A stretch of DNA of 64,000 nt from Elusimicrobiota bacterium. GTDB lineage: Bacteria > Elusimicrobiota > Elusimicrobia > Elusimicrobiales > UBA9959. Position numbers and translations under genes: made by a program. Location of the stretch: contig JAUSCK010000277.1 of assembly GCA_030651035.1 (NCBI GenBank), positions 7,711-71,710 on the forward strand, given 5' to 3'. Of this stretch, positions 1,791 through 48,928 are shown one piece after another (within the stretch, counting starts at the first letter, position 1; the number at the start of each line of letters is the position of its first letter). Under the pieces are notes generated by a model. That model was not told the DNA's origin, did not search any database, and saw only the letters and a program-made list of their open reading frames with translations.

Positions 1791-3356
1791 CTATTCTTTT
1801 ACCGCTATAACATAATGTGTGCTCTGCGGGACCGTGGCCCGAAACAGCGGGGTCTCGCCTTCGGCCGAGATCTTTTCCGGGACTGCCTTAGCCCAGCCTC
1901 CGTCGGTAAGGTAAAGCAGCGTCGCCTCACCAGCGGCTGCGCCGCAGGCCCCGGTCAGGCGGAATTCCATAACCAGGTCCCCCTGTATATTGCCGGGGAC
2001 GCCCACCAGCTGCAGCGAAGAGCAGGCCTTAAGTCCGCCCGGAAGTGCCGCGGCCAGCTTCTCCGGAAGTTCCCCCTCCGCCGCGTTGAAAACCTCGGGC
2101 GCAGGGCCCCTGGACAGCACCCTCATGACTATGGCGCGGGCAGGGGATTCCTCACATACCCCCTCGAGCATGAACTGCACCCCGGCGGGAGAGATCTTCA
2201 GCGGCTTGGCTTGAACGGCGTAGGCGTGCAGTTTGACGGCCTGGAGTTTTTCCGAGGCCAGCACGTTCTCCCTGGGCGAGCGCAGGGCGGGCGCCTTTTT
2301 CTCTCCGAACCTGAAAGAGATAGAAAAGCGGTGCGAATTACCTATATCGCCGAAAGGGGAGAACGCGTAATCAAAAGAGAGTCTTTCCAGCTCCAGCCCC
2401 ATGCCGGCCGAGAAGCCGGACCAGGCTCCGAGCTCGTTGCCGTGCAGGCGGTAGCGGTAGCCGGTGCGCAGCGCCAGGCGCCCGGTCAGCTGCTGCTCCA
2501 GGCCGAGAGCGAGGAAGGGATAATTATCAATCGGTTTGGAAACGTCCAGGCTCAGCAGGGCGCCGGCTTCCGGTATGTGGTGGCTGAGGCCGGCACGCAG
2601 CGTCAGGGGCAGGGCGTAGCTTTTCGACGACAACTTGAGCCCCGGCCCGATGTTCAGCGCCGAAGCCCCGGCGGTAAAAAGGCGGCCGCCCAGCCAGTTG
2701 AACGAGCGGGTCACACCGAGATCAAGCGCGGCTGTGGAGCCGGACTCGTCGTCGATGGTCTGGCTTATGAACTTTACGGCGCCGCCGATATTGGTATCGG
2801 CATCGTAGGCGAAGCCATAGCCGAGTGAGAAAGCCAGGTCGTAGGCCTTGAAGGTCCCTTCCACCGGGGAGATCGGATAGAGCGGGTCGCTTTCGTAAAG
2901 CCCGCTGCGCCGCTCCAGGTCTTTCGGCGTGTGGAAATAATTCAGAGCCAGCCCCCACGTTCCCTTCTTAAGATAGGACGGCCTGAGAAACCGAAGCTTC
3001 TCTCCCTCCGTGGTATAGACGAACAGCTCCTGGCCGAGGTCCTGAAAATACTCGTTATGAGTGAAACTCGCGCGGCGCTCTTTCAGCCCGGCCAGCCCGG
3101 CCGGGTTCCAAAAAATGGCATACGGGTCGTCGGCGACCGCGGTAAAGGCCCCGCCCATGGAGACGGCCCGTGCTCCCGCGCCTATCTTGAGGAAAGCCGC
3201 GGAAGTGGAACCGGCGTCGGGGTGGATCTTCGCGGCATAAGCAGGGAGGGAGTTCAGCGCCAGAAACTGCGCGACAAGGGCAGACAGAACGACCGCGCCT
3301 TGTTTTCGCCAAACAAAGCCGTTCCGTAAAAAGTTAAATCTGCCGTTCAATTTCAT
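1791..3356 (-). CDS. Outer-membrane beta-barrel, PorV/PorQ- or FadL-like, with an extra C-terminal domain
   Basis: Signal-like N-terminus (LNSLPAYAA) followed by LKIGAGARAVSMGGAFTAVADDPYAIFWNPAGLA, a motif typical of PorV/FadL-type barrels. Alternating strand pattern runs to about aa 370, then about 150 further aa. Start set to ATG 3356 (GAGGGA 4 nt upstream); the track start at 3377 is GTG. Confidence 0.7.
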   Translation of the reverse strand: MKLNGRFNFLRNGFVWRKQGAVVLSALVAQFLALNSLPAYAAKIHPDAGSTSAAFLKIGAGARAVSMGGAFTAVADDPYAIFWNPAGLAGLKERRASFTHNEYFQDLGQELFVYTTEGEKLRFLRPSYLKKGTWGLALNYFHTPKDLERRSGLYESDPLYPISPVEGTFKAYDLAFSLGYGFAYDADTNIGGAVKFISQTIDDESGSTAALDLGVTRSFNWLGGRLFTAGASALNIGPGLKLSSKSYALPLTLRAGLSHHIPEAGALLSLDVSKPIDNYPFLALGLEQQLTGRLALRTGYRYRLHGNELGAWSGFSAGMGLELERLSFDYAFSPFGDIGNSHRFSISFRFGEKKAPALRSPRENVLASEKLQAVKLHAYAVQAKPLKISPAGVQFMLEGVCEESPARAIVMRVLSRGPAPEVFNAAEGELPEKLAAALPGGLKACSSLQLVGVPGNIQGDLVMEFRLTGACGAAAGEATLLYLTDGGWAKAVPEKISAEGETPLFRATVPQSTHYVIAVKE

Positions 3357-3367
3357 ACGTCCCTCTT

Positions 3368-3430
3368 GACTCCCCACTCCCGATTCTCGATTCCCGACTC
3401 CCGACTATCGACTTTTGATTTTCGATTTCC
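3368..3430. repeat. Nine tandem heptamers GAYTYYC (GRRRRTC on the minus strand)
   Basis: The run reads gactccc cactccc gattctc gattccc gactccc gactatc gactttt gattttc gatttcc. It fills the spacer between the 1070-aa gene stop (3430) and the PorV-like gene start (3356). Confidence 0.9.
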
Positions 3431-6400
3431 TAATGTATTACCGCCAGCTTCTTGGTGACGACCTTGCCGCCGGAAGCGCTTTCAGCGCTCACCCTGTAGA
3501 CGTAGACGCCGCTGGCGATATTCCTTATATCCCAGGTTATTTCCGAGGTGAGTCCCGCCGGGCAGTTAATCTTCGAGAGTTTCGCCACTTTTTCGCCGGC
3601 CACGTTATAGACATCTATCTCGATGGAAGCCTTGTCGGCCACATAGAACTTGAAGGTAAGGGAGTCTCCCCTCGCCGGGTTGGGATAGGTATAGACAGCG
3701 TTGGCCGTCAGCAGCGCGCCGGACGGCACATACTGCATTATCCTGAAAACCGAGAACGAATCCGTCTCGGCCTTCACCTTATTCGCCGCAGCCAGGACCT
3801 CTGAAGTGTCGAGCAGCATCCAGTTGGAGCCTGAAAGCTTGTACAGCCTCAGGTTCTCCTCTTCGAGGCCGGCAATTTCCGCGTCGGTGTAAGGCAGCAC
3901 TACCTCCGCCGGGGAGGTCAGGCGCGTGCCGGGGTTCTCGAATTTGATCTCGTAAACCACGCCGGTGGGCCTGTACTGTGTGTTGGCCTTGGCGGAAAAA
4001 AGCGGCTGGTACGTGGCGGGATTAAGGCGGGTGACAAGTATATTGTCGTTCTGGTTCACGGCGTTGCGGGGGATATCTACTTCCGCGCCGTCGGCCAGGC
4101 GGACGGTCCCGCCCTGCTCCGCGTCGAAAAAGCGCCAGTTGTCGGCGGAGATGCCGTGAACCTCGGCGGTCATGGTGGAATTATTGGTGCTGTCGAAGGC
4201 GGCTACCGCGTAATAATATTTCAGGTTTACCGCCGCGTCGGCGTCCATATAGCCGGTTTCACCGGCGGCGGAGGAGGCGTAAGGCGCGCTGGAAACGTAC
4301 TGTCCCGCCGCCCGCGAGCGGAATATCCTGTAGCCGTAAACGTCGGCCGCTCCGGCGCCGTCGTCGGGTGAAAGCGTCCAGGTCAGCGTCAGCCTGCCGC
4401 CGTGGTCTCCGCCGGCGTCGCTGACGGCCAGCCCCGAGGGAGCGCCCGGCGCCACAAGGTCCAACGTGGCCATCGCTGTCGCCGGATTGGACAGCGCGGA
4501 GTCGTTGCCGTTAAAATCCCAGGCTTTCAGGGAGAAATAATAGGTCACCCCGCCGAACAGCCCGGAGACCTCCTCGGACTCGGCGGAACCGTAAGCCCCC
4601 GAAACGGTTCTGGAGCTCTTCCAGAGCTGCGCGCCGGGGAAACCCGACCAATCGAAAGCGGCGTAAGTGGAATAGCGTATCTCGTAATGCGAGGCCGCGC
4701 CTACCGCGCCGTCATTACCCGGCGCGGTCCAGGCCAGTTGTACGCGCCCGCCCTGCGAACCCTGCCCGGCCGAAAGGTCGGTCACCGCCGAGGGGTCGGT
4801 TCCGTCGCTGGAGGGGTTCTCGTTGGACGAAGCGGCCGAAGCCTGCGGGGAATCTGCCGACTCTACCCACCCGTCGAAAGCCCTTATCCTGTAATAAAAG
4901 ACGGTCCCGGTGGGGGCGGTCGAGTCCACGTATGAGACTGCCGGAGCTAACGACTCAGCGAGCAGGGCGTAGTCCGCGCCGGTGCTCCTGTATATCCTGT
5001 AGGCGGTCACCCCTGCGCCGGGCGAGGCCGTCCAGTCGAGTTTTATCTTGTTGCCGCTGTCCGCCGGGACGTCCGCAGCCGACAGCGAGGCCGGCGGCTG
5101 CGGGCGGTGGTTTACCCGCAATTCGAGCAAAGCCGTGTTGACAGTGGAAGCCGGGGGTGTCTCCTGCGCCGTCAGTTTAAGGTAATAAAGACCGTTGGAG
5201 AGGGCAGAGGTATCCCAGTCGGCCAGCAGCGCGCCCTGCAGTTCCGCCGAAGCCGCGCTGGAAACCACGGTGGTCCAGGCCGGGGGGTCGGAAACCGCGG
5301 CGTATTCCAGCAGGTAGCCGCTCAGCGCGGGGTTCCTTATATACCCCCTTACCGGCACAGTGCCGCTGATAATCTCCTGCGGAGCCGGGGAGGAGAGGGA
5401 GGCCGCGCGCGCCGCACGCCAGGCCATCAGGTTGCCGCCATGTGTGCCGATATAGAGCATGCCGTTGGCTACGGCCGGCGAGGAGAAGGTGTAGGTGGAC
5501 AGCAGCACCTGCTGCAGCTGCGCGCCGGCGGTGGAGAAAAAGACCAGCCTTCCGTCCGCGGTCCCGGCGCAGATAACGCCGTTGGCCAAAGCCGGAGAGG
5601 ACATGAGGCCCAGGTTGGAAACATTGCCCAGCGTAGGGGAACTGGCCCAGACCCCCTCCAGTCCTGAGCGGGACAGCGCCATCAAATAATGCGGCGACGA
5701 GCCCGCGCCCATATAGATATTGTTCCCGTCGAGCAGGGGCGAGGTGACGCCCATCCAGCCTTCCCCGCCGGACTGCGGCTCAAGCGGTCCGGAAACGCCG
5801 AGCTGGCTGCCGTCCGCAGCGGAAAGAGAGAAAAGCCGCCGTTCGTCGCGGCCGGGAACGGCGTAGACTGAACCGCTGGAAACTGCCAGCGCAGCCATGC
5901 CGTAGCTGCCGCCTATGCTCTGGTAGTAGCCGGCCCCCGGCCAGGCCGCTGCGCCGGTTTCCGCATCCACGGCGTAAGCCCGGCCGTCGTTGGCCCCGAA
6001 GAACACCCTCTCACCGTCGGAAGAGGGAGAGGAATCTACAGGCTGACCGCCCGGCAGGGCAGTCCTTTTCTCAAAAAGCAGCGCCCCGGTGGCGGCACTG
6101 AAAGCTTTGAGCGAGTTCCTAGGCAGCCCCACCCCGGCATAAACCCGGCCGTCGAGATAAAGCGGTGAAGAGACCGAGGTTCCCCCGAGTTCGGCGGTCC
6201 ACAGCACGGCCCCGCTCAGCCTGTCCAGGGCGTAAAGCCGGCCGTCCATGGAAGGGATAAAGACCCCTGCGCTGGAGACGGCCGGAGAGGCATCCACCCA
6301 GCCATCGGTAGAATAATCCCAGACAAGTTCTCCCGTGCGGGCGTCCAGCGCGTACACGCTGCCGGAACGCGCGCCGAAAAAGACCTTGCCGTCGTAAACG

Positions 6401-6630
6401 GCCGGGCTGGAGAGGACGTCGCCCTGCACCTGGAAAGTCCAGGCCGGCGTGAAGGGCGGGTAGGCCTGCTCGGAGGTATAACCGGTGCGCGCGGCGTCCC
6501 CCCTGAACATGGGCCAGTCCGCGGAAAGAACCGGCGAGTTCGGAACGCAAAGGGCAAAGAGCAAAAGCGTTGCCTGCCCGAAAATCTTCCGGGGCAGTTT
6601 CAGTATAAATGAAACGGCGTTTCTCTTCAT
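3430..6630 (-). CDS. Secreted PQQ/BamB-like beta-propeller, three FN3 domains and a T9SS-type C-terminal sorting domain
   Basis: Signal peptide (ATLLLFALCVPNSPVLSA), then DWPMFRGDAARTGYT and repeated propeller blades. Three FN3-like units follow (e.g. KIKLDWTASPGAGVTAYRIYRS). The C-terminus VYTYPNPARGDSLTFKFYV...IDVYNVAGEKV...SGVYVYRV...KKLAVIH matches the Por/T9SS CTD pattern. Start ATG 6630 (GGAGAGG upstream); the track start at 6642 is GTG. Confidence 0.8.
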   Translation of the reverse strand: MKRNAVSFILKLPRKIFGQATLLLFALCVPNSPVLSADWPMFRGDAARTGYTSEQAYPPFTPAWTFQVQGDVLSSPAVYDGKVFFGARSGSVYALDARTGELVWDYSTDGWVDASPAVSSAGVFIPSMDGRLYALDRLSGAVLWTAELGGTSVSSPLYLDGRVYAGVGLPRNSLKAFSAATGALLFEKRTALPGGQPVDSSPSSDGERVFFGANDGRAYAVDAETGAAAWPGAGYYQSIGGSYGMAALAVSSGSVYAVPGRDERRLFSLSAADGSQLGVSGPLEPQSGGEGWMGVTSPLLDGNNIYMGAGSSPHYLMALSRSGLEGVWASSPTLGNVSNLGLMSSPALANGVICAGTADGRLVFFSTAGAQLQQVLLSTYTFSSPAVANGMLYIGTHGGNLMAWRAARAASLSSPAPQEIISGTVPVRGYIRNPALSGYLLEYAAVSDPPAWTTVVSSAASAELQGALLADWDTSALSNGLYYLKLTAQETPPASTVNTALLELRVNHRPQPPASLSAADVPADSGNKIKLDWTASPGAGVTAYRIYRSTGADYALLAESLAPAVSYVDSTAPTGTVFYYRIRAFDGWVESADSPQASAASSNENPSSDGTDPSAVTDLSAGQGSQGGRVQLAWTAPGNDGAVGAASHYEIRYSTYAAFDWSGFPGAQLWKSSRTVSGAYGSAESEEVSGLFGGVTYYFSLKAWDFNGNDSALSNPATAMATLDLVAPGAPSGLAVSDAGGDHGGRLTLTWTLSPDDGAGAADVYGYRIFRSRAAGQYVSSAPYASSAAGETGYMDADAAVNLKYYYAVAAFDSTNNSTMTAEVHGISADNWRFFDAEQGGTVRLADGAEVDIPRNAVNQNDNILVTRLNPATYQPLFSAKANTQYRPTGVVYEIKFENPGTRLTSPAEVVLPYTDAEIAGLEEENLRLYKLSGSNWMLLDTSEVLAAANKVKAETDSFSVFRIMQYVPSGALLTANAVYTYPNPARGDSLTFKFYVADKASIEIDVYNVAGEKVAKLSKINCPAGLTSEITWDIRNIASGVYVYRVSAESASGGKVVTKKLAVIH

Positions 6631-6690
6631 ATGCCTCTCCACCGCCTTAAAAGCCTTCGCTCTTTACGCTTCCGGCCTATACGGTCTTCT

Positions 6691-37763: not shown

Positions 37764-38376
37764 GGGCCAGCAGCTCCTCAAAATATTTACCGGAAATTAC
37801 GCGGCCTTCCTTGATCACATTTTGGATCAATTTATCTTTTTTATCGAACCTGGCGACAAAGTCCCGGCGACGAATAACATGCGGGGAAAGCATCATTCCG
37901 AATTTGGCCAGAAATTCCCCGCTTTTATCCTGTATGCCAGCGGTGATCTTCCGGACATCGAGGGAATCCTCAAGCACGAGCATAATATCCAGGTCGCTGC
38001 CCTGTCTGCCTTCCCCGCGCGCCACACTGCCGAAGACGATCAGGGACACGACGCCTTTATTCGGCAGCGCCTTGCGCAGCTCCTCTATCATCGCGCCAAA
38101 CAGCCCCCCCTCGCTTTCGAAAAGGGGAGACAGCATATTTTTAACCACATAACGCGTTCTGTTGAGCGAGAATAAATATGAAGCCCCCGCGGTCTTCCTG
38201 TGGACGATGCCCGCGGCATAGAGTTCCTGCAGGGCCTGCTGCGCGGCCCTGGGGCTCAAGTCCGCCTTCCTGGCAATTTCCCTGCCCGTGAATTCCGTCC
38301 CGCGGTAAAGGATGCGGAGAATAGTCACCTTTGACTTCTGCCCCAGAAAATCCTCCAGCAGATGCTTTGTGTCCAT
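37753..38376 (-). CDS. Winged-helix plus minimal nucleotidyltransferase (MNT) protein
   Basis: N-terminal wHTH (KVTILRILYRGTEFTGREIARKADLSPRAAQQALQEL) followed by the NTase motif LIVFGSVARGEGRQGSDLDIMLVL (GS...DxD). Confidence 0.8.
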   Translation of the reverse strand: MDTKHLLEDFLGQKSKVTILRILYRGTEFTGREIARKADLSPRAAQQALQELYAAGIVHRKTAGASYLFSLNRTRYVVKNMLSPLFESEGGLFGAMIEELRKALPNKGVVSLIVFGSVARGEGRQGSDLDIMLVLEDSLDVRKITAGIQDKSGEFLAKFGMMLSPHVIRRRDFVARFDKKDKLIQNVIKEGRVISGKYFEELLAHEP

Positions 38377-42001: not shown

Positions 42002-44301
42002 GAGCGGTCGGCCTGGAGAGAGTCGAAAATGGACAGGGAAGGCGACCCGTGCGCCCAGCGGTATTCCAGCACGGGGCGGTCGTCGGAGTGGAGGTAAGGC
42101 GGCGCGAAGCCGTTATCCTCATTAAGCTTTTTCTCGAACTCGCGCGAATACCGGAAAGCCTCGCTGAAAAAAGCGCGGGGGTCGCTTATCCCGAGCCGCC
42201 TCATTTCCGCGAGCATACGCGGGCCCGCCCGCTCCAGGCTGACCGGCGCGTCCTCCAGCGGCCCGGCGAAAGCCACTACGTTGAAATCCTTGCCGTAGGC
42301 GGGGAAATACAGCACGGTGGAGAACACCGAGCGCAGCCCCCGGGAAAGCAGCAGTATATCGTTGCCGTGTACGAGCTGGGTGTACGCGCCGCCGGGGTTT
42401 AGCCGGGACTTTGCCAGCCGCCAGAAGTCCACGGTATAAAGCGAAGAGGAACCCGGCAGGTACGGGTCGAGCACGTTCACGCTGATCACGTCGTAGGTGC
42501 GCTCCTCCGCAGCCAGCAGGCGGCGGCCGTCCCCGGCCAGGAGCTCCGCGCGATCGTCATTGTAGTAGCCGGAATTGAATTCCTGGAAAAGGCGCTGGAT
42601 GCGCAGAAAGAACGGCAGGATCTCGATGGTACGCATCTCGCGGACGCCCTCCGCCTGCAGGAAGGCCCCGGCCGTAAGGCCGAACCCGGTGCCGATGTTC
42701 AGCACGCTCTCGCAGCGCCTGGCGAGCAGGCAGGAGAAGTACGCGGGGGTTTTCTGCGCATAGCTGGTAGCGGGGTTCCCGAGCGGGTTGACCAGGCTGA
42801 GCCGGTTATTGCGGACCTTCAGCCCGTCGGGACCGCGCACCGCGACCTGTATGCCGTATTCATCCTCGTTGCTGTCAAGCAGGGTTTCGCCCTGCTTGAG
42901 GAAGATGAAGTTCTTAGGCGAGAGCTGCCAGCCTAAAGCCAGGGCCGCCAGGCTTGCGGCGGCCGCGGAAGCCAGCCGCCTATTTTCAAGCAGCGCGGTG
43001 AAACAGGCGAGCGCCGCCAGCACCGCCACGCCGGAGGCGGCGACAAAGCCGTAAGCGGTGCCGATTCTTGCCGGCAGCCACAGCCCGCCGTACACCGCGC
43101 CGAGCGCGGCGCCGAGCGAACTGGCCGCGAACAGGAGGCCGGAAAGCCTGCCGGGCCGCCCGCTCTCAGTCTCGGCGGCCTGGAGCAGGACCGGGAAGAC
43201 GGCTCCAAGCGCCACTACGCCCGGCCCCATGGCCAGGAGGGTGAGGGAGATCCTGCCCGCCCCGCTGTTCCCCGGCAGCCAGGACGGGAACAGGGCGCCG
43301 CCGACGATCGCATGCGCCAGCCCGGCGCCCGCCGGGTGCAGGAAAGCGGAAATGGAAAGCAGGAAGGCGGCGATGAGGAGGGCGCCGCGCCTGCCCCGCA
43401 CTTTTTCCGCAGCGGCCAAAGTGCGGGGCCTGCCGCCCCAGCGGCGGCCTGCGAAACGGGCTAAAGAGCAGCCCAGGACAAGGCAGGACAGGTAAATGGC
43501 CAGCAGCAGCGAAATGGCCAAAGTCCGGTCGCCCAGGTAAAATTTGGCTACCCTTCCCCAGAGCAGCTCATAGCACAGCGACAGCGCACCGGACAGAAAG
43601 GCCAGGGCCAGGAAGGGCGCGGCCGGAAACGGCAGACTTTTCTCAGGCGGCAGCCCGCCGTTTTGGGGGATGTCCCCGGCTCCGGACACAGCAAACCCCA
43701 GCAAGGCCGCCGCTGCGTACATGAACAGCGCCAGGTCGGCGGTCCCGGAAACACCGAACAGCCAGAGCAGCGCAAAACCGCAGGCGAGCGCCCCGACGGC
43801 CCCGCCGGCCGTATTTACCGCGTACAAAGCGGCCGCCTCGTCCCCCGCTTTCTTCCCCTCTTTCAAAGCGCCGACGATAACGGGGAAACCTATCCCCATC
43901 GGGACGGCCGCCAGCAGGATAAGCGCAAGGGCCTGCGCGGAGGTCACCGTGTCGCCATGCCGGAGAAGCGCCCAGACCGCCAGGCGCCCGAATAGCCCGG
44001 CGGAAAGGTTAACGGCGGAAAGGGTCAGGAGGGGTCTGCGGAGGAAAGGCAAAAGCAGGCTTCCCAGCCAGGAACCGAGGGCTAGCGCCAGTATGAACGC
44101 GGCAAAAACGGCGGTCATGGCCGCGGCGGTCGAACCGGCTATATTGGAATAGAGCCGGGTTAAAAGGACTTCGAAGACCAGCCCCCCGGCGCCGGAAATA
44201 AAAAAAAGCGTTTTGAGCCAGAAAAGCCTGCTCCTGCGGGAAAAACAGCGATAAAGGGGGTCCTCACCGAGGATAGCGCGCAGCCCGGCCAGGCTGATCA
44301 T
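41998..44301 (-). CDS. Fused polytopic membrane / spermidine-synthase-fold protein (paralogue)
   Basis: 767 aa. ISGAGGLVFEVLLTRLYS plus multiple TM segments, then VLNIGTGFGLTAGA...EILPFF...YDVISVNVLDPYLPGSSSLYTVDFW. It has a 4-nt ATGA overlap with the downstream paralogue. Confidence 0.7.
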   Translation of the reverse strand: MISLAGLRAILGEDPLYRCFSRRSRLFWLKTLFFISGAGGLVFEVLLTRLYSNIAGSTAAAMTAVFAAFILALALGSWLGSLLLPFLRRPLLTLSAVNLSAGLFGRLAVWALLRHGDTVTSAQALALILLAAVPMGIGFPVIVGALKEGKKAGDEAAALYAVNTAGGAVGALACGFALLWLFGVSGTADLALFMYAAAALLGFAVSGAGDIPQNGGLPPEKSLPFPAAPFLALAFLSGALSLCYELLWGRVAKFYLGDRTLAISLLLAIYLSCLVLGCSLARFAGRRWGGRPRTLAAAEKVRGRRGALLIAAFLLSISAFLHPAGAGLAHAIVGGALFPSWLPGNSGAGRISLTLLAMGPGVVALGAVFPVLLQAAETESGRPGRLSGLLFAASSLGAALGAVYGGLWLPARIGTAYGFVAASGVAVLAALACFTALLENRRLASAAAASLAALALGWQLSPKNFIFLKQGETLLDSNEDEYGIQVAVRGPDGLKVRNNRLSLVNPLGNPATSYAQKTPAYFSCLLARRCESVLNIGTGFGLTAGAFLQAEGVREMRTIEILPFFLRIQRLFQEFNSGYYNDDRAELLAGDGRRLLAAEERTYDVISVNVLDPYLPGSSSLYTVDFWRLAKSRLNPGGAYTQLVHGNDILLLSRGLRSVFSTVLYFPAYGKDFNVVAFAGPLEDAPVSLERAGPRMLAEMRRLGISDPRAFFSEAFRYSREFEKKLNEDNGFAPPYLHSDDRPVLEYRWAHGSPSLSIFDSLQADRS

Positions 44302-44314: not shown

Positions 44315-45664
44315 TCACAGGCCGGCCGGCCATACGGGCGGGACCTCGTACCAGGAGTCGGAGACTATGTCAACCCCCTGCAGCAGTATGCCGGTCGCCA
44401 CCTGGTCGTCGTAATAAATGCCCATGGTGGAAGTGCCCATGGTGGCGTCATGGGCGCTCATCAGCACGCCGTTGATATTGCAGTTGCCGCCGCCCACAAG
44501 GCCCTGGTCCCCCCCGGTATAAATAAAACCGTGTATGATCACATTGTCCAAGGTGTAGGTTTTATTGGCGGCCAGGTAGTTGGAGCTCAAAGCCGCCGCG
44601 TAAGTGGCCGGGGCCCCGCTAACCACAGGGTCGAAGGTCAGGTAATGCGCCCAGTTATTCCCATATTCCTTCCACGCCTCGGACGGCAGGCGGGCGGCAT
44701 ATTTGCCGGCGGCGCCGGCGGCGCCCCCGAAAGCCAGATCCCCGAGGACGATAACGGTGCCCCTGATGAATTGCGAAGAGCCGGCGCTGAAAGTGGCGTC
44801 CCCGGTTATGTAGTAGGTTTTATTGGTGATATCGTTGCAGCCGGAGAAAGTCGCATTCCCGACCCTGTAATAGGTGGAAGCTTTGGCGTTGCCGCAGCCA
44901 GTCGGGGCCGCGCCGCTGGCCGTGGCCGAGGCCAGGTAAGAGGAAAATTTGATATTCGGCAGCGGCGGGATGGCGTAATAAGACCACCAGTAAACATTGT
45001 CCGTATTGGAGGTGGTAGAGCCGCCGTCCTGCGGCGTTACATGCCCGGCGCTGTAATACCGGGGGAAGGTGCGGGCGGTGGCATCGATGGAGTTGCCGGA
45101 CACTACCGACCCCCACTCTATATGGTCGTTGCCCCCGGTATTGGATACCAGGTTGGAGGCCCGGGTGGCGAAGTCGGCGGCGTTGCCGTTAAGCAGCACC
45201 TGCTTTATGCGGCGGGCCTGGGCGCGGGTTTTATCCCTCCCCACCGATTCCACTATGCGCTTGTCGGGGTCTGTAGGGTGAGAAGTGATGTTTATAGCGT
45301 AGGTGCCGCCGTCCTCGGCGGTATAAACCTTGTCGAAATGGTAGCCGGCTAGCGTGCCGGTTGAAGTGATCGTCCACATATCGTCATTCTCAAGCAGCTT
45401 CCAGCGCGCCCTGTCCACCCCGGCCTCGGCCATGTGGAAAGCCGCCGTGGCTTTTTTCTCCTTTACCGACCACTTGCCCTCGTTCTGCACGAACATGTTC
45501 ATAACAGGGAACATCAGCAGAAGGAAAAGCATTATGACGATGACCATGGTCATGGCCATCTGGCCCGGCCGGGAGGCAAAGGATAAAGGATAAAGGATAA
45601 AGGATAAAGGGCGGCGGACCAAAGCCGAAAGCACTTTCCCGCCCGAATTTTCTATTCTTTTCAT
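44315..45664 (-). CDS. PilX-like minor pilin / pilus assembly protein
   Basis: SRPGQMAMTMVIVIMLFLLLMF ... AFHMAEAGVDRARWKLL resembles the PilX N-terminal domain, followed by a large Gly/Thr/Ala-rich C-terminal region. ATG 45664 is preferred; the track start at 45700 is GTG. Confidence 0.55.
   Translation of the reverse strand: MKRIENSGGKVLSALVRRPLSFILYPLSFASRPGQMAMTMVIVIMLFLLLMFPVMNMFVQNEGKWSVKEKKATAAFHMAEAGVDRARWKLLENDDMWTITSTGTLAGYHFDKVYTAEDGGTYAINITSHPTDPDKRIVESVGRDKTRAQARRIKQVLLNGNAADFATRASNLVSNTGGNDHIEWGSVVSGNSIDATARTFPRYYSAGHVTPQDGGSTTSNTDNVYWWSYYAIPPLPNIKFSSYLASATASGAAPTGCGNAKASTYYRVGNATFSGCNDITNKTYYITGDATFSAGSSQFIRGTVIVLGDLAFGGAAGAAGKYAARLPSEAWKEYGNNWAHYLTFDPVVSGAPATYAAALSSNYLAANKTYTLDNVIIHGFIYTGGDQGLVGGGNCNINGVLMSAHDATMGTSTMGIYYDDQVATGILLQGVDIVSDSWYEVPPVWPAGL
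45578..45612 (+). repeat. Four perfect AAAGGAT heptamers plus AAAGGGC inside the PilX-like 5' region
   Basis: aaaggat x4 at 45578-45605. It encodes PLSFILYPLSFA in the putative leader. Confidence 0.9.
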
Positions 45665-45700
45665 TATTTTTTCAACCTTCCCACTCCCCGCCGTTTCCAC

Positions 45701-45728
45701 CCTTCATCCCTCAGCCTTCATCCTTTCC
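45701..45728 (-). repeat. RARGGAT word array in the pseudopilin/PilX-like spacer
   Basis: The minus strand reads GGAAAGGATGAAGGCTGAGGGATGAAGG. It is complementary to the array at 45578-45612 and 23/27 identical to the element at 54438-54460. Confidence 0.85.
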
Positions 45729-45730
45729 TG

Positions 45731-46243
45731 CTAGTTCATTATCCTCACTTTTTCCACGGCCATCTGCAGGGCCTTGGTGCCGCCCTCATAGGTGGCTTTT
45801 TCAAAGGTTAAGGAGATAGAGAGTATGGTGCCGTCGTCGGTGCGGGGGTAGGTGAAGGCGATATAGCGCAGGTTGTTGGCTATCATCTTGCCGCTGACGC
45901 CGCCCCGGGCCTGGAAGAGCTGGGTGCCCTGCTGGTAGTAAGACATAGTCTCCAGGGCGCCGGCTGAATTGTACTTTATAAAGGTTATGCGGGAATGCGG
46001 CGGCTGTCCTGAAACCGAGTCTATGACAAGGCTGGCAGCCTGCGCCTGGCGCAGGTCCCTGTTGATATTGGCCAGCGCCCCGCGGGCGTTTTTCTGTATC
46101 TCCACGCGGGCCGTCATCAGCTGCACGAACTGGAAAACCTTGGTGAATGTTTTTGGCGCGGCTATCATTACCACTCCCATGATAGCCACCACCACCATCA
46201 TCTCTATCATGGTGAAACCGCGTTTTGAGCTTATGGTTCTCAT
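45731..46243 (-). CDS. Prepilin-type N-terminal cleavage/methylation domain protein (GspJ/PilW-like pseudopilin)
   Basis: MRTISSKRG/FTMIEMMVVVAIMGVV carries the canonical G/FTxIE motif with Glu+5. 170 aa. Confidence 0.85.
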   Translation of the reverse strand: MRTISSKRGFTMIEMMVVVAIMGVVMIAAPKTFTKVFQFVQLMTARVEIQKNARGALANINRDLRQAQAASLVIDSVSGQPPHSRITFIKYNSAGALETMSYYQQGTQLFQARGGVSGKMIANNLRYIAFTYPRTDDGTILSISLTFEKATYEGGTKALQMAVEKVRIMN

Positions 46244-46247
46244 AAGG

Positions 46248-48818
46248 TCACCAGAAAAAATTGGCCGTCTTTGCTTCGGCTAGGGCCACGCTTACTGCAA
46301 GTGACTCCTGGCGGACGGTGGTGGGCACTACACCTCTCCAGGTGGTATACCAGGCGTAAACATTGTAGCTGTAGCCGCCCTTAACCGGGATAGTGTAATT
46401 GCCCAGCGCGTTGCTGGAAGCGGCGTAATAGATGCCGGTGCCTCCGCGCAGGGCCGAGTTTATAGTAGGCGGGGCGGCGCCGGCAGCCAGGGTGGCGGTG
46501 GTAACATAAACAAGCACCCCGGTGGTTATCACCGGGCCCGCGGCGCTGCCCGTGCGCACGCTGCCGCTCATGGAGCCGAACGCCCCGGAAATAGTATAGG
46601 TGGAGGAGAAAGCCGTCAGGCCGGCCGCAATCGTGACCGTAGTGCTGGAGGGGGAAGAGCTCTCTCCCGCCTCCAACTGGGGCACCACCACATAGGTGCC
46701 GGTGGAAACGCCCGAGCCGGAAATAGTGAAATAGCCGTCGGCGCCGCTTATGCCGCTGCCCTGTTCCACCCCGCCCTTGAGCCCCACCACCGGGATATTC
46801 GGCAGCGGGTCAGTGCCGTTGGTGGTTATCCGGCCGCGTATCCGGCCGCCGTAGTAAAGAGAGAAGTTCACGTCCTTTACCGCCTGGCCTATGCCCACGT
46901 TCACATCCGCGGAGGAAAGTTCCACATAGCTGGGACTTTGGCTCTGGTAGTTGGCTATCACGGTCATTACTCCGGCCGTCACGGGCAGGGTATAGCGGCC
47001 GCTCGCGTCGGTGGCTACCTGCGGGTTGCCGGATGAAAACATCTTTATGCCGGGAAGCGCGGTCCCGTAGACATTGGCGACCCGCCCGGTGACATAGCCG
47101 AAGGTCGTGATCGTGGACAGGCGGATGAAGCTGCCGGCAGAGTCGCTGAAGCTGTTCCAGGTTTTGCCGTAATAGGCCACGCTGGAAAAAGCCACGCCGC
47201 TCGAGAGATAAACCGTCCAAGAGCCGGTGGCCACGTTGACCAGGTTGAAGTAACCGTAGGAACTGGCCGTCACCGGGAAGGAAAGCCCGTCGTCGGCGAA
47301 GACCAGCGCGCCGTCCGCGGTCTGGCCGGTAACGCAGGGCTCCGAGTAAGAACTGTTATTCGGCTGGTCGACCAGCGGGAAGCTGATGCGGAAGTCGACA
47401 TAATTCATGTTGGAGTCGGAACAGCGCGCTTCGCCCGGGTTGTTCGCATACCGCACGCTGGTCCGGACAAACCCCATGCCGGGCTCCAGCCCGTTTTGGT
47501 TCTCGGTATAGGGCGGGAGGGGCACCCGCCAGTAGATGGAAAAAACCTCGTACCAGCCGAAGTCCGGGCTGTAACCGTTGTTGAGGGAATACCAACCCAC
47601 CCTGTCAATTATCTGGCCGGTAACTTTGTTATCGAGTATCACGCCGCCCGGGAAGGAAGGGACGCCGGTCTTGATGACGTTGTCCTGGTTGGCCCAGTTG
47701 GAATCACTGTCATAGACCGCGTCGGCCTGGCGGGTGACGCCGACGGCCGTAATGGTGCCGGTATTGGCGAACAGGAAATAGGTGTTGGAAGACAGGCTGA
47801 CGGTGCGGTAGTCGAAGTCCGGCGCGATCTCGGTGACGTTTTTTTCCTTATATCTGATGCCCACCACCTCGTTGGCGCCGGTGCCGAGCCCTGTGGCCAT
47901 GGTCCAGGTCCAGGTGGTAGGGTTGTAGACCTCCACCCACTCGTCGTCACCGGTGGCGGTGGCCGAGCTGCCCACGATCTGGCTGATGACGAGGCGGTCC
48001 GCAATATGTGCGTAGCCCCATATCGAGCCGCTGTTCATCTGGGTAAGCGTGAAATCTTTTCCGGTGGCGTTCTGGGCGGAGAGTACCCCGAAAGAGGAAA
48101 GCGTGCCCGTGAAATAGCCGCTCTTGGTGGCCAGCAGGGTATAGGTGCCGGGCTCTATGGTGAAGTAGTACTCCCCGTTGACGTCGGTTACACCGTATTT
48201 CGAGGGGTTTTCCTGCGCGCGCACTATCACGTCCTGCAGGTGGGCGCCGCCGCTGGAGTGCACGGTGCCTCTTATGGAGGCGCTCAGATTGACGCGTTCC
48301 GGGTTTTCCCGCATGTTCCGTATCTCCAGTTTGCGCCATTCCCCGCGCTCAAACCAGGCCACATAAACCTTGACCTCCTTAAGCCCGGGATCCGGCTCGT
48401 CCCAGGCGAGGTAGTCGAGGCTGCCGTCGGCAGCTTCATTAACCTTTCTTACATAGACCCGCCGGATAAAATTCAGGCCGCCCACGTTCACCGTCTCCTG
48501 GCCGTTCGGGGCGCGGTCATAGACCATCTCGCCCGCTGGGAAATTATCGTCGGAAACCGGGTCAGTTGTGACGAGCACCCTGTAATAGGATTTATTCTTA
48601 AGGTACTCAATCCTTTCCTGCGCGATGTTGTTGGCCAGCGAGCGGGTTTTGGCGGACTGCACGCCCACGTTGAAGTACTTGAAAGCCCCGATCATGCCCA
48701 GCACGCCCACTGACATCACGACCATGGCTACCTTGAGTTCCACAAGGGTCCCGCGGGCGCGCCGGCGCGCCGGTGCGCCGGAGAATATCCGGCTTAAATG
48801 TTTCACAACTCTTGTCAT
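46248..48818 (-). CDS. PilV-like minor pilin fused to a large adhesin-like region (CarboxypepD_reg-like and lamin-tail-like)
   Basis: RRRARGTLVELKVAMVVMSVGVLGMIGAF...SLANNIAQERIEYLK is PilV-like but degenerate (no G-F). It also has GTVHSSGG..LQDVIVRAQE...TDVNGEYYFTIEPGTYTLLATKSGY and a lamin-tail motif DDEWVEVYNPT. ATG 48818 has GAGGGA 7 nt upstream; the alternative ATG is 48848. Confidence 0.6.
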   Translation of the reverse strand: MTRVVKHLSRIFSGAPARRRARGTLVELKVAMVVMSVGVLGMIGAFKYFNVGVQSAKTRSLANNIAQERIEYLKNKSYYRVLVTTDPVSDDNFPAGEMVYDRAPNGQETVNVGGLNFIRRVYVRKVNEAADGSLDYLAWDEPDPGLKEVKVYVAWFERGEWRKLEIRNMRENPERVNLSASIRGTVHSSGGAHLQDVIVRAQENPSKYGVTDVNGEYYFTIEPGTYTLLATKSGYFTGTLSSFGVLSAQNATGKDFTLTQMNSGSIWGYAHIADRLVISQIVGSSATATGDDEWVEVYNPTTWTWTMATGLGTGANEVVGIRYKEKNVTEIAPDFDYRTVSLSSNTYFLFANTGTITAVGVTRQADAVYDSDSNWANQDNVIKTGVPSFPGGVILDNKVTGQIIDRVGWYSLNNGYSPDFGWYEVFSIYWRVPLPPYTENQNGLEPGMGFVRTSVRYANNPGEARCSDSNMNYVDFRISFPLVDQPNNSSYSEPCVTGQTADGALVFADDGLSFPVTASSYGYFNLVNVATGSWTVYLSSGVAFSSVAYYGKTWNSFSDSAGSFIRLSTITTFGYVTGRVANVYGTALPGIKMFSSGNPQVATDASGRYTLPVTAGVMTVIANYQSQSPSYVELSSADVNVGIGQAVKDVNFSLYYGGRIRGRITTNGTDPLPNIPVVGLKGGVEQGSGISGADGYFTISGSGVSTGTYVVVPQLEAGESSSPSSTTVTIAAGLTAFSSTYTISGAFGSMSGSVRTGSAAGPVITTGVLVYVTTATLAAGAAPPTINSALRGGTGIYYAASSNALGNYTIPVKGGYSYNVYAWYTTWRGVVPTTVRQESLAVSVALAEAKTANFFW

Positions 48819-48928
48819 TACCTGATCCCTCACCCGGAACAAAACCATTATAGATACTCTATTACAAAAAAATCAAGGGGGAAACAAAAAAAAATCAAAT
48901 TTCGGCCAAATCCCATAGAGCAAATGGT

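What the first reader, a model, noticed from the sequence alone, without database searches (positions are those of the whole stretch)
1791..48848. 47-kb co-directional gene train linking minor pilins, SpdS-fold membrane proteins, a RiPP cassette, an Rrf2 switch, the giant protein and a PorV/CTD pair
Seen: every gene from 48818 down to 1791 is on the minus strand, with gaps from -11 to about 190 nt (widest at 48819-49041). The order is PilV-like (with LTD), pseudopilin, PilX-like, two fused membrane/spermidine-synthase-fold proteins, HprK-like kinase, [promoter], wHTH-MNT, HEPN, PqqD, precursor, S26B peptidase, rSAM-SPASM, [promoter/operator], Rrf2, giant protein, propeller-FN3-CTD protein, PorV-like barrel. 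Shared modules tie the parts together. Lamin-tail-like segments occur in both the PilV-like protein and the giant protein. PQQ-like propellers occur at the giant C-terminus and at the N-terminus of the next protein. A T9SS-type CTD sits next to a PorV-like barrel. Inference: this may be one surface-appendage system in which a pilus-like machine and/or a PorV-type shuttle displays a megadalton fibre, with a small modified peptide and an Rrf2 regulator as accessory parts. No PilB/C/D/Q/T, GspD/E/F or core T9SS genes are in the window, so any motor is encoded elsewhere.
Basis: inference. Interest (0 to 1): 0.8.

Follow-up and report, generated by a model that had tools for sequence, protein, structure and literature searches.

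The report
Peptide-maturation genes coupled to giant adhesin
The 47-kb same-strand gene run is real but is a mosaic: its conserved core, found in dozens of Elusimicrobiota genomes and so far undescribed, pairs the genes for a small enzyme-modified peptide with a giant surface protein and an outer-membrane anchor pair, while the pilin-like genes are a clade-specific add-on and the spermidine-synthase-like and toxin-antitoxin genes are recent insertions.

Summary
Sixteen consecutive minus-strand genes span 1791-48848, and the run continues to 51188.

The "one system" reading is only partly right. In 29 of 41 related loci with at least 4 kb upstream, a peptide-maturation cassette lies directly upstream of the gene carrying the giant's N-terminal module. 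The cassette is ScmC-like P-loop protein, PqqD, radical-SAM/SPASM enzyme, a ~45-aa precursor and an S24/S26-like peptidase. In three genomes the peptidase is fused in frame to the giant. Where the 3' end of the big gene is visible, a propeller protein with a T9SS-type CTD follows it, and in two cases a PorV/PorQ-family barrel too. Rrf2 with a conserved palindrome precedes the giant in 15 loci.

The pilin-like trio occurs in one clade only, but there it overlaps the cassette genes. The two spermidine-synthase fusions occur only here and in one near relative. The MNT/HEPN pair occurs only here.

The precursor family (766 clusters, all "hypothetical") has three invariant Cys and an invariant C-terminal Ser. 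How the peptide serves the fibre is unknown.

Verdict: a new variant of known kinds; interest 0.65.

The parts
1791..3377 (-). PorV/PorQ-family outer-membrane beta-barrel with a ~170-aa C-terminal extension
   Evidence: NF033709 scores 150.7 bits (cut-off 90). The PorV and PorQ equivalog models are not reached. An orthologue follows the propeller-CTD gene in L007 and L058.
3430..6642 (-). Secreted protein: signal peptide, 8-blade PQQ_2/BamB-like propeller, Ig/FN3 domains, T9SS type-A C-terminal domain
   Evidence: PQQ_2 E=3.7e-33. Por_Secre_tail 42 bits (cut-off 27); TIGR04183 35.8 bits (cut-off 23). It has its own signal peptide and two stop codons separate it from the giant. Orthologues lie directly after the big gene in L007, L023, L036 and L048.
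6691..34857 (-). Giant 9388-aa surface protein: signal peptide, conserved N-terminal all-beta module, about 47 repeats of ~110-114 aa mixed with FN3/Ig domains, two large non-repeat inserts, two LTDs, C-terminal propeller
   Evidence: ORF; Pfam; repeat spacing.
33088..34737 (-). N-terminal module of the giant (about aa 41-590): the part whose homologues track the peptide cassette across genomes
   Evidence: Homologues; 49 genomic loci. The AlphaFold model has pLDDT 82.8 and pTM 0.85, is all-beta, and shows four motif-delimited beta-sandwich units. PDB matches are generic only.
6694..9660 (-). C-terminal end of the giant: two lamin-tail domains (about 8908-9660) and a PQQ-like propeller (about 6694-8013)
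   Evidence: LTD E=6.9e-26 with 2 stretches; Beta-prop_ACSF4 E=1.7e-27. The same LTD plus propeller content is recorded for the L145 giant. The propeller is homologous to that of the next protein.
34870..35316 (-). Rrf2-family regulator without the Fe-S cysteine triad, 12 nt upstream of the giant gene
   Evidence: Rrf2 61.6 bits (cut-off 30). Only two Cys residues, at positions 13 and 42, in the sequence. It lies directly before the giant in 15 of 41 loci.
35336..35442 (-). Promoter-like site (35442-35415) and a perfect inverted repeat AGCCATTGGA-N9-TCCAATGGCT (35336-35364), a probable operator
   Evidence: CCATTGG-N11-CCAATGG is conserved upstream of Rrf2 in L008, L010, L015, L018 and L020.
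35439..36536 (-). Radical-SAM/SPASM peptide-modifying enzyme
   Evidence: Radical_SAM 74 bits, SPASM 33 bits. No NCBIfam equivalog cut-off is reached; the best is PqqE at 123 bits. CxxxCxxC and eight C-terminal Cys are visible in the sequence.
36564..36905 (-). Small S24/S26-like Ser/His peptidase without an N-terminal membrane anchor; probable leader peptidase
   Evidence: Weak family hits. GxSMxP, HRV and DD motifs are conserved in 21 homologues. It is always next to the precursor gene. It is fused to the giant in L002, L037 and L041.
36908..37045 (-). 45-aa precursor peptide MKKKKTYEKPKIKTEKVFETAALACGKCQTGPISQLACKTLKKFS
   Evidence: 33 orthologues were extracted. Y7, P10, C25, C28 and the terminal S45 are invariant, and C38 is nearly invariant in the MAFFT columns; every sequence nevertheless carries the third Cys. 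The family holds 766 clusters, all unnamed.
37060..37323 (-). PqqD-family leader-recognition protein
   Evidence: PqqD 57.4 bits (cut-off 23.4). The best NCBIfam hits are lasso-type PqqD chaperones.
37356..38376 (-). wHTH-nucleotidyltransferase (37753-38376) and HEPN (37356-37781) pair: an inserted toxin-antitoxin-like module, not part of the system
   Evidence: NTP_transf_2 42.8 bits; HEPN 18.3 bits; an R-x5-H motif is visible. The pair is absent between ScmC and PqqD in all relatives, including L137. It has its own 11/12 promoter-like site at 38438-38409.
38486..39355 (-). ScmC-family P-loop protein (HprK-related): first gene of the peptide cassette
   Evidence: TIGR04249 E=2.7e-6; HprK_rel_A/B E~1e-4. 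Orthologues carry the precomputed PF27840 ScmC hit. A promoter-like site lies at 39374-39346.
39452..44301 (-). Two fused membrane/spermidine-synthase-fold proteins (41998-44301 and 39452-42001): a lineage-specific insertion
   Evidence: NF037959 scores 57 and 53 bits (cut-off 40). GC is 0.67 against 0.55-0.60 in the flanks. They are absent between PilX and ScmC in six relatives and present only in L137/L138.
44315..48848 (-). Pilin-like trio: large PilV-like protein (46248-48848), pseudopilin (45731-46243) and a PilX-like protein (44315-45700): a clade-specific upstream module
   Evidence: N_methyl 35.5 bits for the pseudopilin; CarboxypepD_reg E=9e-20 and a weak LTD for the large protein. 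Orthologues occur in L008, L009, L010, L013, L014, L040 and L137 only.
106..1761 (+). ABC-2 type exporter (ATPase 106-771, permease 946-1761), convergent with the PorV-like gene; a recurrent neighbour and candidate peptide exporter
   Evidence: Pfam. It sits inside the cassette, between the peptidase and Rrf2, in L026, L030 and L033; in L052 it lies upstream of ScmC. It is divergent upstream in L003, L004 and L038. The same convergent layout is seen in L057.

Best explanation
The train is a composite of one conserved system and three later additions.

**Conserved system (about 1791-39355, minus the MNT/HEPN pair).** It couples a ribosomal-peptide maturation cassette to a giant surface fibre. 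The proposed steps are:
1. PqqD binds the YxKP leader of the 45-aa precursor.
2. The radical-SAM/SPASM enzyme cross-links the core through its three invariant cysteines.
3. The ScmC P-loop protein modifies, most likely phosphorylates, the invariant C-terminal serine.
4. The cytoplasmic S24/S26-like peptidase removes the leader at A-L-A|C.
5. The ABC-2 pump exports the ~21-residue product.
6. A cluster-less Rrf2 repressor acts at a conserved palindrome and controls a unit made of Rrf2, the giant, the propeller-CTD protein and the PorV/PorQ-like barrel.
7. The Sec-exported giant is held at the outer membrane by its C-terminal propeller. That propeller docks on the homologous propeller of the CTD protein, whose CTD is kept by the cognate barrel.
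8. The peptide acts on or with the conserved N-terminal beta-sandwich module, or signals for the locus.

**Additions.** The pilin-like trio is an upstream operon extension in one Elusimicrobiales clade. The SpdS pair and the MNT/HEPN pair are insertions.

**Shown:** gene families, synteny, gene fusions and conserved motifs. **Inferred:** every biochemical step and the anchoring.
For: **Cassette-giant linkage**
- 29 of 41 loci with at least 4 kb upstream carry at least 2 cassette genes directly upstream on the same strand. These include contigs binned to Firestonebacteria, Ignavibacteria and Deltaproteobacteria. L007 and L145 show the same arrangement.
- The peptidase is fused in frame to the giant in three genomes.

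**Precursor**
- Y, P, two Cys and the terminal Ser are invariant alignment columns. The third Cys is near-invariant in the alignment but present in every sequence. Residues -3 and -1 before the first Cys are small (A/T and A/G/S).
- The precursor gene and the peptidase gene are always adjacent. In L142-144 they occur as a pair on their own.

**Modification of the C-terminal Ser**
- HPr-kinase homologues phosphorylate the C-terminal Ser of lasso precursors, and a nucleotidyltransferase extends the phosphate (PMC8498205).
- NTP_transf_5 genes recur next to the giant.

**Export and regulation**
- An ABC-2 pair lies inside or beside the cluster in at least 7 loci.
- A conserved palindrome lies upstream of Rrf2.

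**Downstream partners**
- The propeller-CTD gene follows the big gene in L007, L023, L036 and L048. The PorV-family gene follows it in L007 and L058.
- A CTD-ending gene directly upstream of a PorV-family gene is a frequent pair in unrelated metagenome loci.

**Insertions**
- SpdS pair. TA pair.
- The four best promoter-like sites fall in the four largest gaps, before PilV, ScmC, MNT and Rrf2.
Against: - No experiment or transcript data is available, and the chemistry of the peptide is unknown.
- ScmC matches only P-loops in solved structures. Its HprK relationship rests on weak HMM hits.
- The cassette is missing within 10 kb in 12 of the 41 loci, among them L016, L021, L023 and L038.
- One precursor-peptidase pair sits far from any giant, so the coupling is frequent but not obligatory.
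- Docking of the two propellers and retention by the PorV-like barrel are untested. T9SS core genes are not known for this genome.
- In relatives the pilin genes overlap ScmC, so they may be more than an add-on.
- The taxonomic labels of the non-Elusimicrobiota contigs come from MAG binning.
Confidence: 0.6

Rival explanations
1. One reading: all 16 genes form one surface-appendage system. A type IV pilus-like or T2SS-like machine, primed by the minor pilins and helped by the SpdS-fold membrane proteins, exports or displays the giant fibre. The peptide and Rrf2 are accessories.
For: - The pilin-like trio overlaps the cassette genes in L008, L013 and L040 and precedes them in six relatives plus L137.
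- Omnitrophota giant genes are preceded by T2SS/T4P-like loci with class III signal-peptide genes (bioRxiv 10.1101/2023.11.21.568195).
- The giant itself lacks a CTD, so it needs some other route across the outer membrane.
Against: - No prepilin-motif gene lies within 10 kb upstream in the other loci.
- L039 keeps the flanks and the cassette without the pilins.
- The SpdS pair is absent from six pilin-bearing relatives.
- The PilV-like protein of this window has Arg where relatives have the obligatory Gly at -1.
- 'PilX-like' has no family support.
- No ATPase, platform, secretin or prepilin peptidase is in the window.
Confidence: 0.12
2. The peptide cassette is an ordinary stand-alone RiPP cluster for an antimicrobial or signalling peptide. 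It lies next to the giant adhesin gene because both sit in a variable, horizontally exchanged island, with no direct functional link.
For: - A precursor-peptidase pair is found without a giant, and giants are found without a cassette within 10 kb.
- Insertions are frequent between the cassette and the giant: AAA_14/DUF4143 genes, a Y1 transposase, the TA pair.
- The L137 cassette is only 39-42% identical while the adjacent SpdS genes are 83-85% identical, so the locus is a mosaic.
Against: - The adjacency survives across very divergent lineages, with N-module identity down to 33-40%, and across gene-order changes.
- In-frame peptidase-giant fusions occur in three genomes.
- The ABC-2 pair and Rrf2 are interleaved between the cassette and the giant.
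Confidence: 0.2
3. The S24/S26-like protein is a dedicated SipW-like signal peptidase for the giant protein, and the small peptide is a second substrate or a fibre accessory. This would resemble the tapA-sipW-tasA fibre operon (recalled from the literature, not tested here).
For: - The peptidase is the immediate upstream neighbour of the giant in most loci and is fused to it in three.
- Both the giant's signal peptide (VSA|ETR) and the precursor (ALA|C) have small residues at -3 and -1.
- The conserved mature N-terminus TRIKTVEY starts right at the cleavage site in all homologues.
- A genuine S26 signal peptidase sits next to the Saccharibacteria homologue.
Against: - The protein has no N-terminal membrane anchor or signal peptide, and only a basic amphipathic C-terminal helix. 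Its active site should therefore face the cytoplasm, the wrong side for signal-peptide cleavage.
- It stays with the precursor when no giant is nearby.
Confidence: 0.08

Closest known systems
SynChlorMet (SCM) cassette (NCBIfam TIGR04248-04251; Pfam PF27840 ScmC)
   Same: A ScmC-family P-loop protein, a PqqD-like protein and a PqqE-like radical-SAM/SPASM enzyme lie in one cassette.
   Different: There is one rSAM enzyme rather than two. No SCM equivalog cut-off is reached (ScmC 27 of 125 bits, ScmE 77 of 400). This cassette has a defined precursor family, an S24/S26-like peptidase and a giant surface protein as constant neighbours.
Lasso-peptide clusters with an HPr-kinase homologue (paeninodin, pseudomycoidin; PMC8498205)
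   Same: A lasso-type PqqD/RRE is the best match, the leader carries a YxxP-type motif, the C-terminal Ser is invariant, a HprK-related P-loop protein is present, and nucleotidyltransferase genes are nearby in some loci.
   Different: No lasso cyclase or B2 protease is present. Cross-linking is presumably done by a radical-SAM/SPASM enzyme acting on Cys residues.
T9SS cargo with a dedicated PorP/PorV-like barrel encoded next to it (type B CTD-PorP pairs, PMC9143113; specialised shuttles, PMC12618676; SprB-SprF is recalled from memory)
   Same: A CTD-bearing secreted protein is directly followed by a PorV/PorQ-family barrel, next to a giant repetitive adhesin.
   Different: The CTD is on the 1070-aa partner, not on the giant. 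The barrel is neither PorV nor PorQ by equivalog score. The phylum is Elusimicrobiota, and T9SS core genes were not seen or tested.
Minor-pilin/PilY1 operon of type IVa pili (fimU-pilVWXY1E; recalled from memory)
   Same: The order is PilV-like, pseudopilin, PilX-like, and then a large non-pilin protein ending in a beta-propeller.
   Different: A peptide cassette and a regulator intervene. The propeller is PQQ_2/ACSF4-type, with no PilY1/PilC match. The protein is about nine times larger. The pilin genes are absent from most related loci.
Omnitrophota giant genes preceded by T2SS/T4P-like loci (bioRxiv 10.1101/2023.11.21.568195)
   Same: A giant gene has small class III signal-peptide genes upstream.
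   Different: Those loci contain gspD/E/F-like genes, and their giants have many transmembrane segments and SecA-like domains. Neither is seen here, and no peptide cassette is reported there.
MntA/HepT-type nucleotidyltransferase-HEPN toxin-antitoxin pairs
   Same: The pair consists of overlapping genes with an NTP_transf_2 domain and a HEPN protein carrying an R-x5-H motif. Its distribution is scattered; a similar pair sits next to an unrelated PorV locus, L077.
   Different: The pair falls below the equivalog cut-off (27 of 60 bits) and carries an extra N-terminal winged helix.

Membership tests
RRE-dependent radical-SAM/SPASM RiPP cluster | Short precursor gene next to the enzymes, with a conserved leader and core | tested here: met
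   A 45-aa ORF lies at 36908-37045. 33 orthologues share invariant Y, P, two Cys and the terminal Ser, and all carry the third Cys. The family holds 766 clusters.
RRE-dependent radical-SAM/SPASM RiPP cluster | PqqD-like recognition element and an rSAM enzyme with CxxxCxxC plus a SPASM domain | tested here: met
   PqqD 57.4 bits (cut-off 23.4); Radical_SAM 74.3 (29.5); SPASM 33.4 (21.5).
RRE-dependent radical-SAM/SPASM RiPP cluster | Demonstrated post-translational modification of the peptide | not testable with these tools
   Needs expression and mass spectrometry.
SynChlorMet cassette | ScmC, ScmD, ScmE and ScmF equivalogs | tested here: not met
   ScmC 26.9 of 125 bits, ScmD 21.3 of 100, ScmE 77.4 of 400, ScmF 61.6 of 400. 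Only one rSAM gene is present. Orthologues do carry precomputed PF27840.
Lasso peptide cluster with kinase | Lasso cyclase and B2 leader protease | tested here: not met
   No such domain occurs in any ORF of the train.
Lasso peptide cluster with kinase | HPr-kinase homologue acting on a C-terminal Ser | tested here: inconclusive
   The C-terminal Ser is invariant. Homology to the kinase is weak: HprK_rel_A/B E~1e-4, and only P-loop matches in the PDB.
T9SS cargo / PorV shuttle | Type A C-terminal sorting domain | tested here: met
   PF18962 42 bits (cut-off 27); TIGR04183 35.8 bits (cut-off 23) at aa 986-1065 of the 3430-6642 product.
T9SS cargo / PorV shuttle | PorV or PorQ orthologue | tested here: not met
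   Subfamily NF033709 is passed (150.7 of 90), but PorV scores 54.9 of 250, PorQ 85.4 of 220 and PorV2 64 of 325.
T9SS cargo / PorV shuttle | Core machinery (SprA/Sov, PorK/L/M/N, PorU) in the genome | not testable with these tools
   Only 64 kb of the genome is available. None was found in the window.
Type IV pilus minor-pilin / PilY1 module | Prepilin cleavage/methylation motif (G at -1, E at +5) | tested here: inconclusive
   Met for 45731-46243 (N_methyl 35.5 of 21.2). The PilV-like protein has R at -1 where four relatives have G. The PilX-like protein has no hit.
Type IV pilus minor-pilin / PilY1 module | PilY1/PilC-type domain in the large protein | tested here: not met
   The giant's C-terminus matches Beta-prop_ACSF4/PQQ-type propellers only.
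Type IV pilus minor-pilin / PilY1 module | Assembly ATPase, platform, secretin and prepilin peptidase | not testable with these tools
   None is in the window. The rest of the genome was not available.
S26B (SipW/Sec11-type) signal peptidase | Ser/His(/Asp) catalytic motifs | tested here: met
   GxSMxP, HRV and DD are conserved in 21 homologues.
S26B (SipW/Sec11-type) signal peptidase | Family HMM cut-off and an N-terminal membrane anchor | tested here: not met
   TIGR02228 22.4 of 51.85 bits; Peptidase_S24 20.1 of 23.3. The ORF starts 2 nt after the precursor's stop codon, and no hydrophobic segment precedes the catalytic Ser.
Rrf2 regulators | Rrf2 winged-helix domain; three-Cys Fe-S ligand set for the sensing subgroup | tested here: met
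   The domain scores 61.6 of 30 bits. The Cys triad is absent; Cys occurs only at positions 13 and 42. It is therefore a cluster-less member.
Fused MFS/spermidine synthase (NF037959) | Subfamily HMM cut-off | tested here: met
   53.3 and 56.7 bits (cut-off 40).

The most novel reading that the evidence does not exclude
The modified peptide is not an antibiotic, signal or cofactor. It is a built-in assembly or anchoring component of the surface fibre. The cross-linked, C-terminally phosphorylated (or phospho-glycosylated) 21-mer would become a stoichiometric ligand or cap of the giant's conserved N-terminal beta-sandwich module. In the Elusimicrobiales clade it might link that module to a pilin-like tip or pseudopilus. 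This would be the first ribosomal natural-product pathway dedicated to building a cell-surface appendage.
Probability: 0.2. Interest if true: 0.85.

Novelty: new variant of a known kind. Interest (0 to 1): 0.65.

Why it matters
Radical-SAM peptide cassettes, giant adhesins and CTD/PorV-like pairs are each known. A conserved genetic coupling between a peptide-maturation pathway and a giant surface protein has not been described as far as I could find. The coupling is strong enough to produce peptidase-adhesin gene fusions.

The work defines a large, unannotated precursor family: 766 clusters, all named "hypothetical". The family has simple testable predictions: three Cys cross-links, a modified C-terminal Ser, and cleavage at A-L-A|C.

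It gives a handle on the function of SCM-type cassettes, whose substrates have been unclear. It also suggests how Elusimicrobiota, a mostly uncultured phylum, build and control their largest surface structures.

Finally, it shows that long co-directional gene trains can hide recent insertions, so they should not be read as single systems without comparative checks.

Tried and rejected
- **Giant and next ORF as one gene.** I tested whether the giant and the next ORF are one gene split by a stop codon, which would give the giant a CTD. Rejected: two stops intervene, the second protein has its own signal peptide, and the genes are in different frames in L007 and L023.
- **Shared 'LYPLSF' motif.** The motif occurs in the giant's signal peptide and upstream in the PilX-like ORF. 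It is an 18/24-nt resemblance only and was treated as chance.
- **ScmC profile against the PDB.** Only P-loop matches were found, so the kinase assignment could not be strengthened.
- **Full-library HMM search with alignment A1.** The counts (10492 at E<=0.001) are inflated by the FN3/Ig columns of the profile. The search mainly showed that the N-module also occurs internally in other large proteins.
- **Metagenome scan with the PorV-like protein.** It returned mostly generic PorV-family loci. Only L057 and L058 were close relatives.
- **Look-up of the source contig via P0021.** Nothing was found.
- **Literature searches** for SynChlorMet/ScmC, Elusimicrobia plus RiPP, Elusimicrobia plus T9SS, and E. 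minutum pilins found no description of this locus.
- **Rfam and tRNA scans** of the window found nothing.

Full report

Yes. The ORF map shows sixteen consecutive minus-strand genes from 48848 down to 1791. Junctions range from overlaps to 122 nt. The SpdS genes overlap by 4 nt; MNT/HEPN overlap by 11 or 29 nt, depending on the start chosen.

The run does not stop at 48848. A K/E-rich secreted protein (49042-49830) and a GT2 glycosyltransferase (49881-51188) are also on the minus strand, and they are syntenic in relatives. The lower end meets a convergent ABC-2 exporter at 106-1761.

Four labels are weaker than stated:
- The LTD in the PilV-like protein scores 17.8 bits against a cut-off of 34.3. 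Similarity to the giant's LTDs is at motif level only.
- 'PilX-like' has no family hit, even at E<=1.
- The 'HprK-like kinase' is better described as a ScmC-family P-loop protein. Its HMM hits have E values from 1e-4 to 1e-6, and it matches only P-loops in the PDB.
- 'S26B' rests on sub-threshold hits plus conserved Ser/His/Asp motifs.

The source is an Elusimicrobiota MAG. The SpdS protein is 100% identical to NCBI locus tag Q7R35_17325 on a 77-kb contig.

**2. Which genes travel together?**

I seeded searches with the first 600-700 residues of the giant, the only non-repetitive and clearly conserved part. A scan of one genome per species returned 49 loci. I mapped all window proteins onto them by tblastn and by ORF clustering.

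The dominant pattern is a cassette that lies immediately upstream of the gene carrying this N-terminal module, on the same strand. The cassette comprises ScmC, PqqD, rSAM/SPASM, precursor and S24/S26-like peptidase.
- 29 of the 41 loci with at least 4 kb upstream carry at least two of these genes.
- This includes contigs binned to Firestonebacteria, Ignavibacteria and Deltaproteobacteria. Those labels come from binning and should be treated with caution.
- Gene order varies: PqqD-precursor-peptidase-rSAM here, PqqD-rSAM-precursor-peptidase elsewhere. The precursor-peptidase pair never separates.
- In L002, L037 and L041 the peptidase domain is fused in frame to the N-terminus of the giant.

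Other recurrent neighbours:
- Rrf2 sits directly before the giant in 15 loci.
- An ABC-2 exporter pair sits between the peptidase and Rrf2 in L026, L030 and L033, and upstream of ScmC in L052. It is divergent upstream in L003, L004 and L038. It is convergent after the PorV-like gene here and in L057.
- Other recurrent neighbours are HD_5, directly upstream of ScmC in 12 loci, and NTP_transf_5.

**3. The downstream partners**

Most relatives' big genes run off the 10-kb flank. Wherever the 3' end is visible in cassette-bearing lineages, a propeller-CTD orthologue follows it (L007, L023, L036, L048).

L007 is a miniature of the whole system: XRE regulator, ScmC, PqqD, rSAM, precursor, peptidase, a 1099-aa protein (N-module plus propeller), propeller-CTD protein, PorV-family protein. 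L058 shows the propeller-CTD (79% identity) and PorV-like (86%) pair. L145's giant also carries LTD and propeller domains.

In unrelated metagenome loci a CTD-ending gene directly upstream of a PorV-family gene is common. This pair therefore looks like a generic cargo-plus-cognate-barrel module. It is comparable to the CTD/PorP-like pairs described in Bacteroidota (PMC9143113, PMC12618676).

The giant and the CTD protein are separate genes. Their propellers are homologous.

**4. The pilin-like genes**

A motif scan found prepilin-type N-termini upstream only in close Elusimicrobiales relatives. In L008, L009, L010, L013, L014 and L040 the order is GT2, K/E-rich, PilV-like, pseudopilin, PilX-like (one or two copies), then ScmC.

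Genes there overlap by 1-4 nt, including the PilX/ScmC and ScmC/PqqD junctions. That pattern is typical of a single, translationally coupled operon. This is real support for a link between the pilin-like genes and the cassette in that clade.

Three results argue against a general requirement:
- 35 of 41 loci lack the pilin genes.
- L039, at the same divergence, keeps GT2 and K/E-rich directly before ScmC without pilins.
- This window's PilV-like protein has Arg where four relatives have the obligatory Gly at -1.

**5. The SpdS pair and the MNT/HEPN pair**

Neither is present in the six pilin-bearing relatives.

The SpdS pair has a distinct composition: GC 0.67 against 0.55-0.60 in the flanks. 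It recurs in this position only in L137/L138. There the SpdS genes are 83-85% identical to the window's, but the adjacent cassette genes are only 39-42% identical, so the locus is a mosaic. More distant homologues sit among TMEM260-like GT-C/TPR genes or next to housekeeping genes.

The MNT/HEPN pair is absent even from L137. It has its own 11/12 promoter-like site, and a similar pair sits in an unrelated locus, L077.

Both pairs are best read as insertions into what was a compact pilin-cassette operon. The four strongest promoter-like matches on the minus strand fall exactly in the four largest gaps: before PilV, ScmC, MNT and Rrf2.

**6. The peptide**

Thirty-three orthologous precursors were extracted and aligned. 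They show:
- a Lys-rich N-terminus;
- invariant Y and P (YxKP, the type of leader motif bound by lasso-type PqqD proteins, which are also the best NCBIfam matches of the PqqD here);
- EK(V/I)(F/I)E;
- A-L-(A/G/S) immediately before CGKC;
- a third Cys and an invariant C-terminal Ser.

Small residues at -3 and -1 fit cleavage by an S24/S26-type enzyme, which would leave a core of about 21 residues starting with Cys.

The invariant terminal Ser beside a HprK-related P-loop protein parallels lasso clusters. [quoted passage not shown] NTP_transf_5 genes recur in these loci.

A profile search found 766 clusters of this precursor. All are unnamed, and the named sources are all Elusimicrobiota. No NCBIfam or Pfam model hit it.

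One sampled precursor-peptidase pair stands alone without rSAM or giant within 10 kb. The coupling is therefore frequent but not absolute. This case also shows that the peptidase is tied first of all to the precursor.

**7. The N-terminal module and regulation**

AlphaFold on a 13-sequence alignment gave a confident all-beta model: pLDDT 82.8, pTM 0.85. A strand motif recurs four times in the alignment (xTYEY ... KTV), consistent with four beta-sandwich units. PDB matches are only generic carbohydrate-binding-like sandwiches.

The mature N-terminus TRIKTVEY begins right after the predicted signal-peptide cleavage site in all homologues. Homologues without a cassette occur in Actinomycetota, Saccharibacteria and archaea, next to WxL-type partners.

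Upstream of Rrf2 lies a perfect 10-nt inverted repeat. It is conserved upstream of Rrf2 in five other genomes and is a plausible operator for the Rrf2-giant unit.

**8. Interpretation**

The best-supported reading is a conserved 'peptide cassette plus giant fibre plus CTD/PorV-like anchor' system. It carries a clade-specific pilin-like operon extension and two recent insertions.

Gene families, synteny, fusions and motifs are shown. The enzymology, the export, the propeller-propeller docking, the retention by the barrel and the role of the peptide are inferred.

I consider three roles for the peptide, and I cannot rank them with the data in hand:
- a ligand or cap of the N-terminal module;
- an autoinducer for the locus;
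- an unrelated co-inherited product.

It is wrong about the SpdS and MNT/HEPN genes, and about which genes form the core.

**9. Novelty**

All components belong to known kinds. Their conserved coupling, the precursor family and the peptidase-giant fusions appear undescribed in the literature I could search.

Noticed in passing
window 48740-48760 (PilV-like N-terminus): The prepilin motif reads RRAR|GTLVE here, but RRAG|VTLTE (or PG|MTLTE) in four relatives. The obligatory Gly at -1 is therefore Arg in this genome. The protein may not be processed, or the sequence may carry a local error.
   Followed up: partly
L002 10001-10400; L037 9722-; L041 9593-: The S24/S26-like peptidase domain is fused in frame to the N-terminus of the giant protein in three genomes. 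It is followed by an amphipathic helix and the signal-peptide hydrophobic region.
   Followed up: partly
L142 10001-10637 (also L143, L144): A precursor and Peptidase_S24 gene pair stands alone, with no rSAM, PqqD, ScmC or giant gene within 10 kb. It lies next to BacA and glycogen-metabolism genes.
   Followed up: no
L137 1-7600: Mosaic conservation against the window: PilX-like 69% identical and the SpdS pair 83-85%, but ScmC, PqqD and the peptidase only 39-42%. This suggests recombination or cassette swapping at the SpdS/ScmC junction.
   Followed up: no
L009 4843-5988, L012 301-1479, L017, L036 2236-3459, L145 10583-11164: The short stretch between the cassette and Rrf2/giant repeatedly holds foreign genes (AAA_14/DUF4143 ATPases, a Y1 transposase). 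It appears to be an insertion hot spot, like the site of the MNT/HEPN pair in the window.
   Followed up: partly
L005 4729-9424; L055 7557-; L050, L051: Homologues of the giant's N-terminal module occur in Actinomycetota, Saccharibacteria and archaea without the peptide cassette. They lie next to a membrane-anchored protein with a weak WxL-interacting-domain match. In Saccharibacteria a genuine S26 signal peptidase also lies alongside.
   Followed up: partly
L025, L028, L031, L035, L043, L145 and others (gene directly upstream of ScmC): An HD_5 (HD-GYP-like) protein precedes ScmC in 12 Endomicrobia-type loci, where Rrf2 is mostly absent (L026 and L030 have both). This may be an alternative regulatory input, possibly through cyclic di-GMP.
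   Followed up: no
L059, L060, L065, L066, L085, L090, L092: In many unrelated metagenome contigs a gene ending in a T9SS-type CTD lies directly upstream of a PorV-family barrel gene. Cargo-plus-own-barrel pairs seem to be a widespread two-gene module.
   Followed up: no
window about 21570-23850 and 10320-12640 (giant aa 3669-4430 and 7406-8178): Two interruptions of about 760 aa break the repeat array. Each is preceded by FN3 pairs and has Trp-rich, blade-like sequence. By eye the two inserts resemble each other.
   Followed up: no
window 51232-52119 (+): A bacterial ORF has a C-terminal match to the eukaryote-type ubiquilin/STI1 DP domain (PF23195, E=3.6e-9). It is divergently transcribed from the GT2 gene that heads the train.
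   Followed up: no
window 54442-55705 (-), 52384-53592 (+): An ECF sigma factor with a zf-HC2 anti-sigma partner, and an S8 subtilase, lie just beyond the train. These are ordinary envelope-stress and protease genes and were not linked to the finding.
   Followed up: no
L027 2393-4714; L053 8143-8820; L139 6677-9964 and 14957-18106; L049 3385-5715: TMEM260-like GT-C/TPR proteins flank the distant SpdS pair in L139, and one lies upstream of the giant's N-module gene in L027. A TPR-only protein precedes the PorV-like gene in L053. One SpdS-like protein lies upstream of the N-module gene in L049. This hints at a loose association with envelope or protein glycosylation.
   Followed up: no
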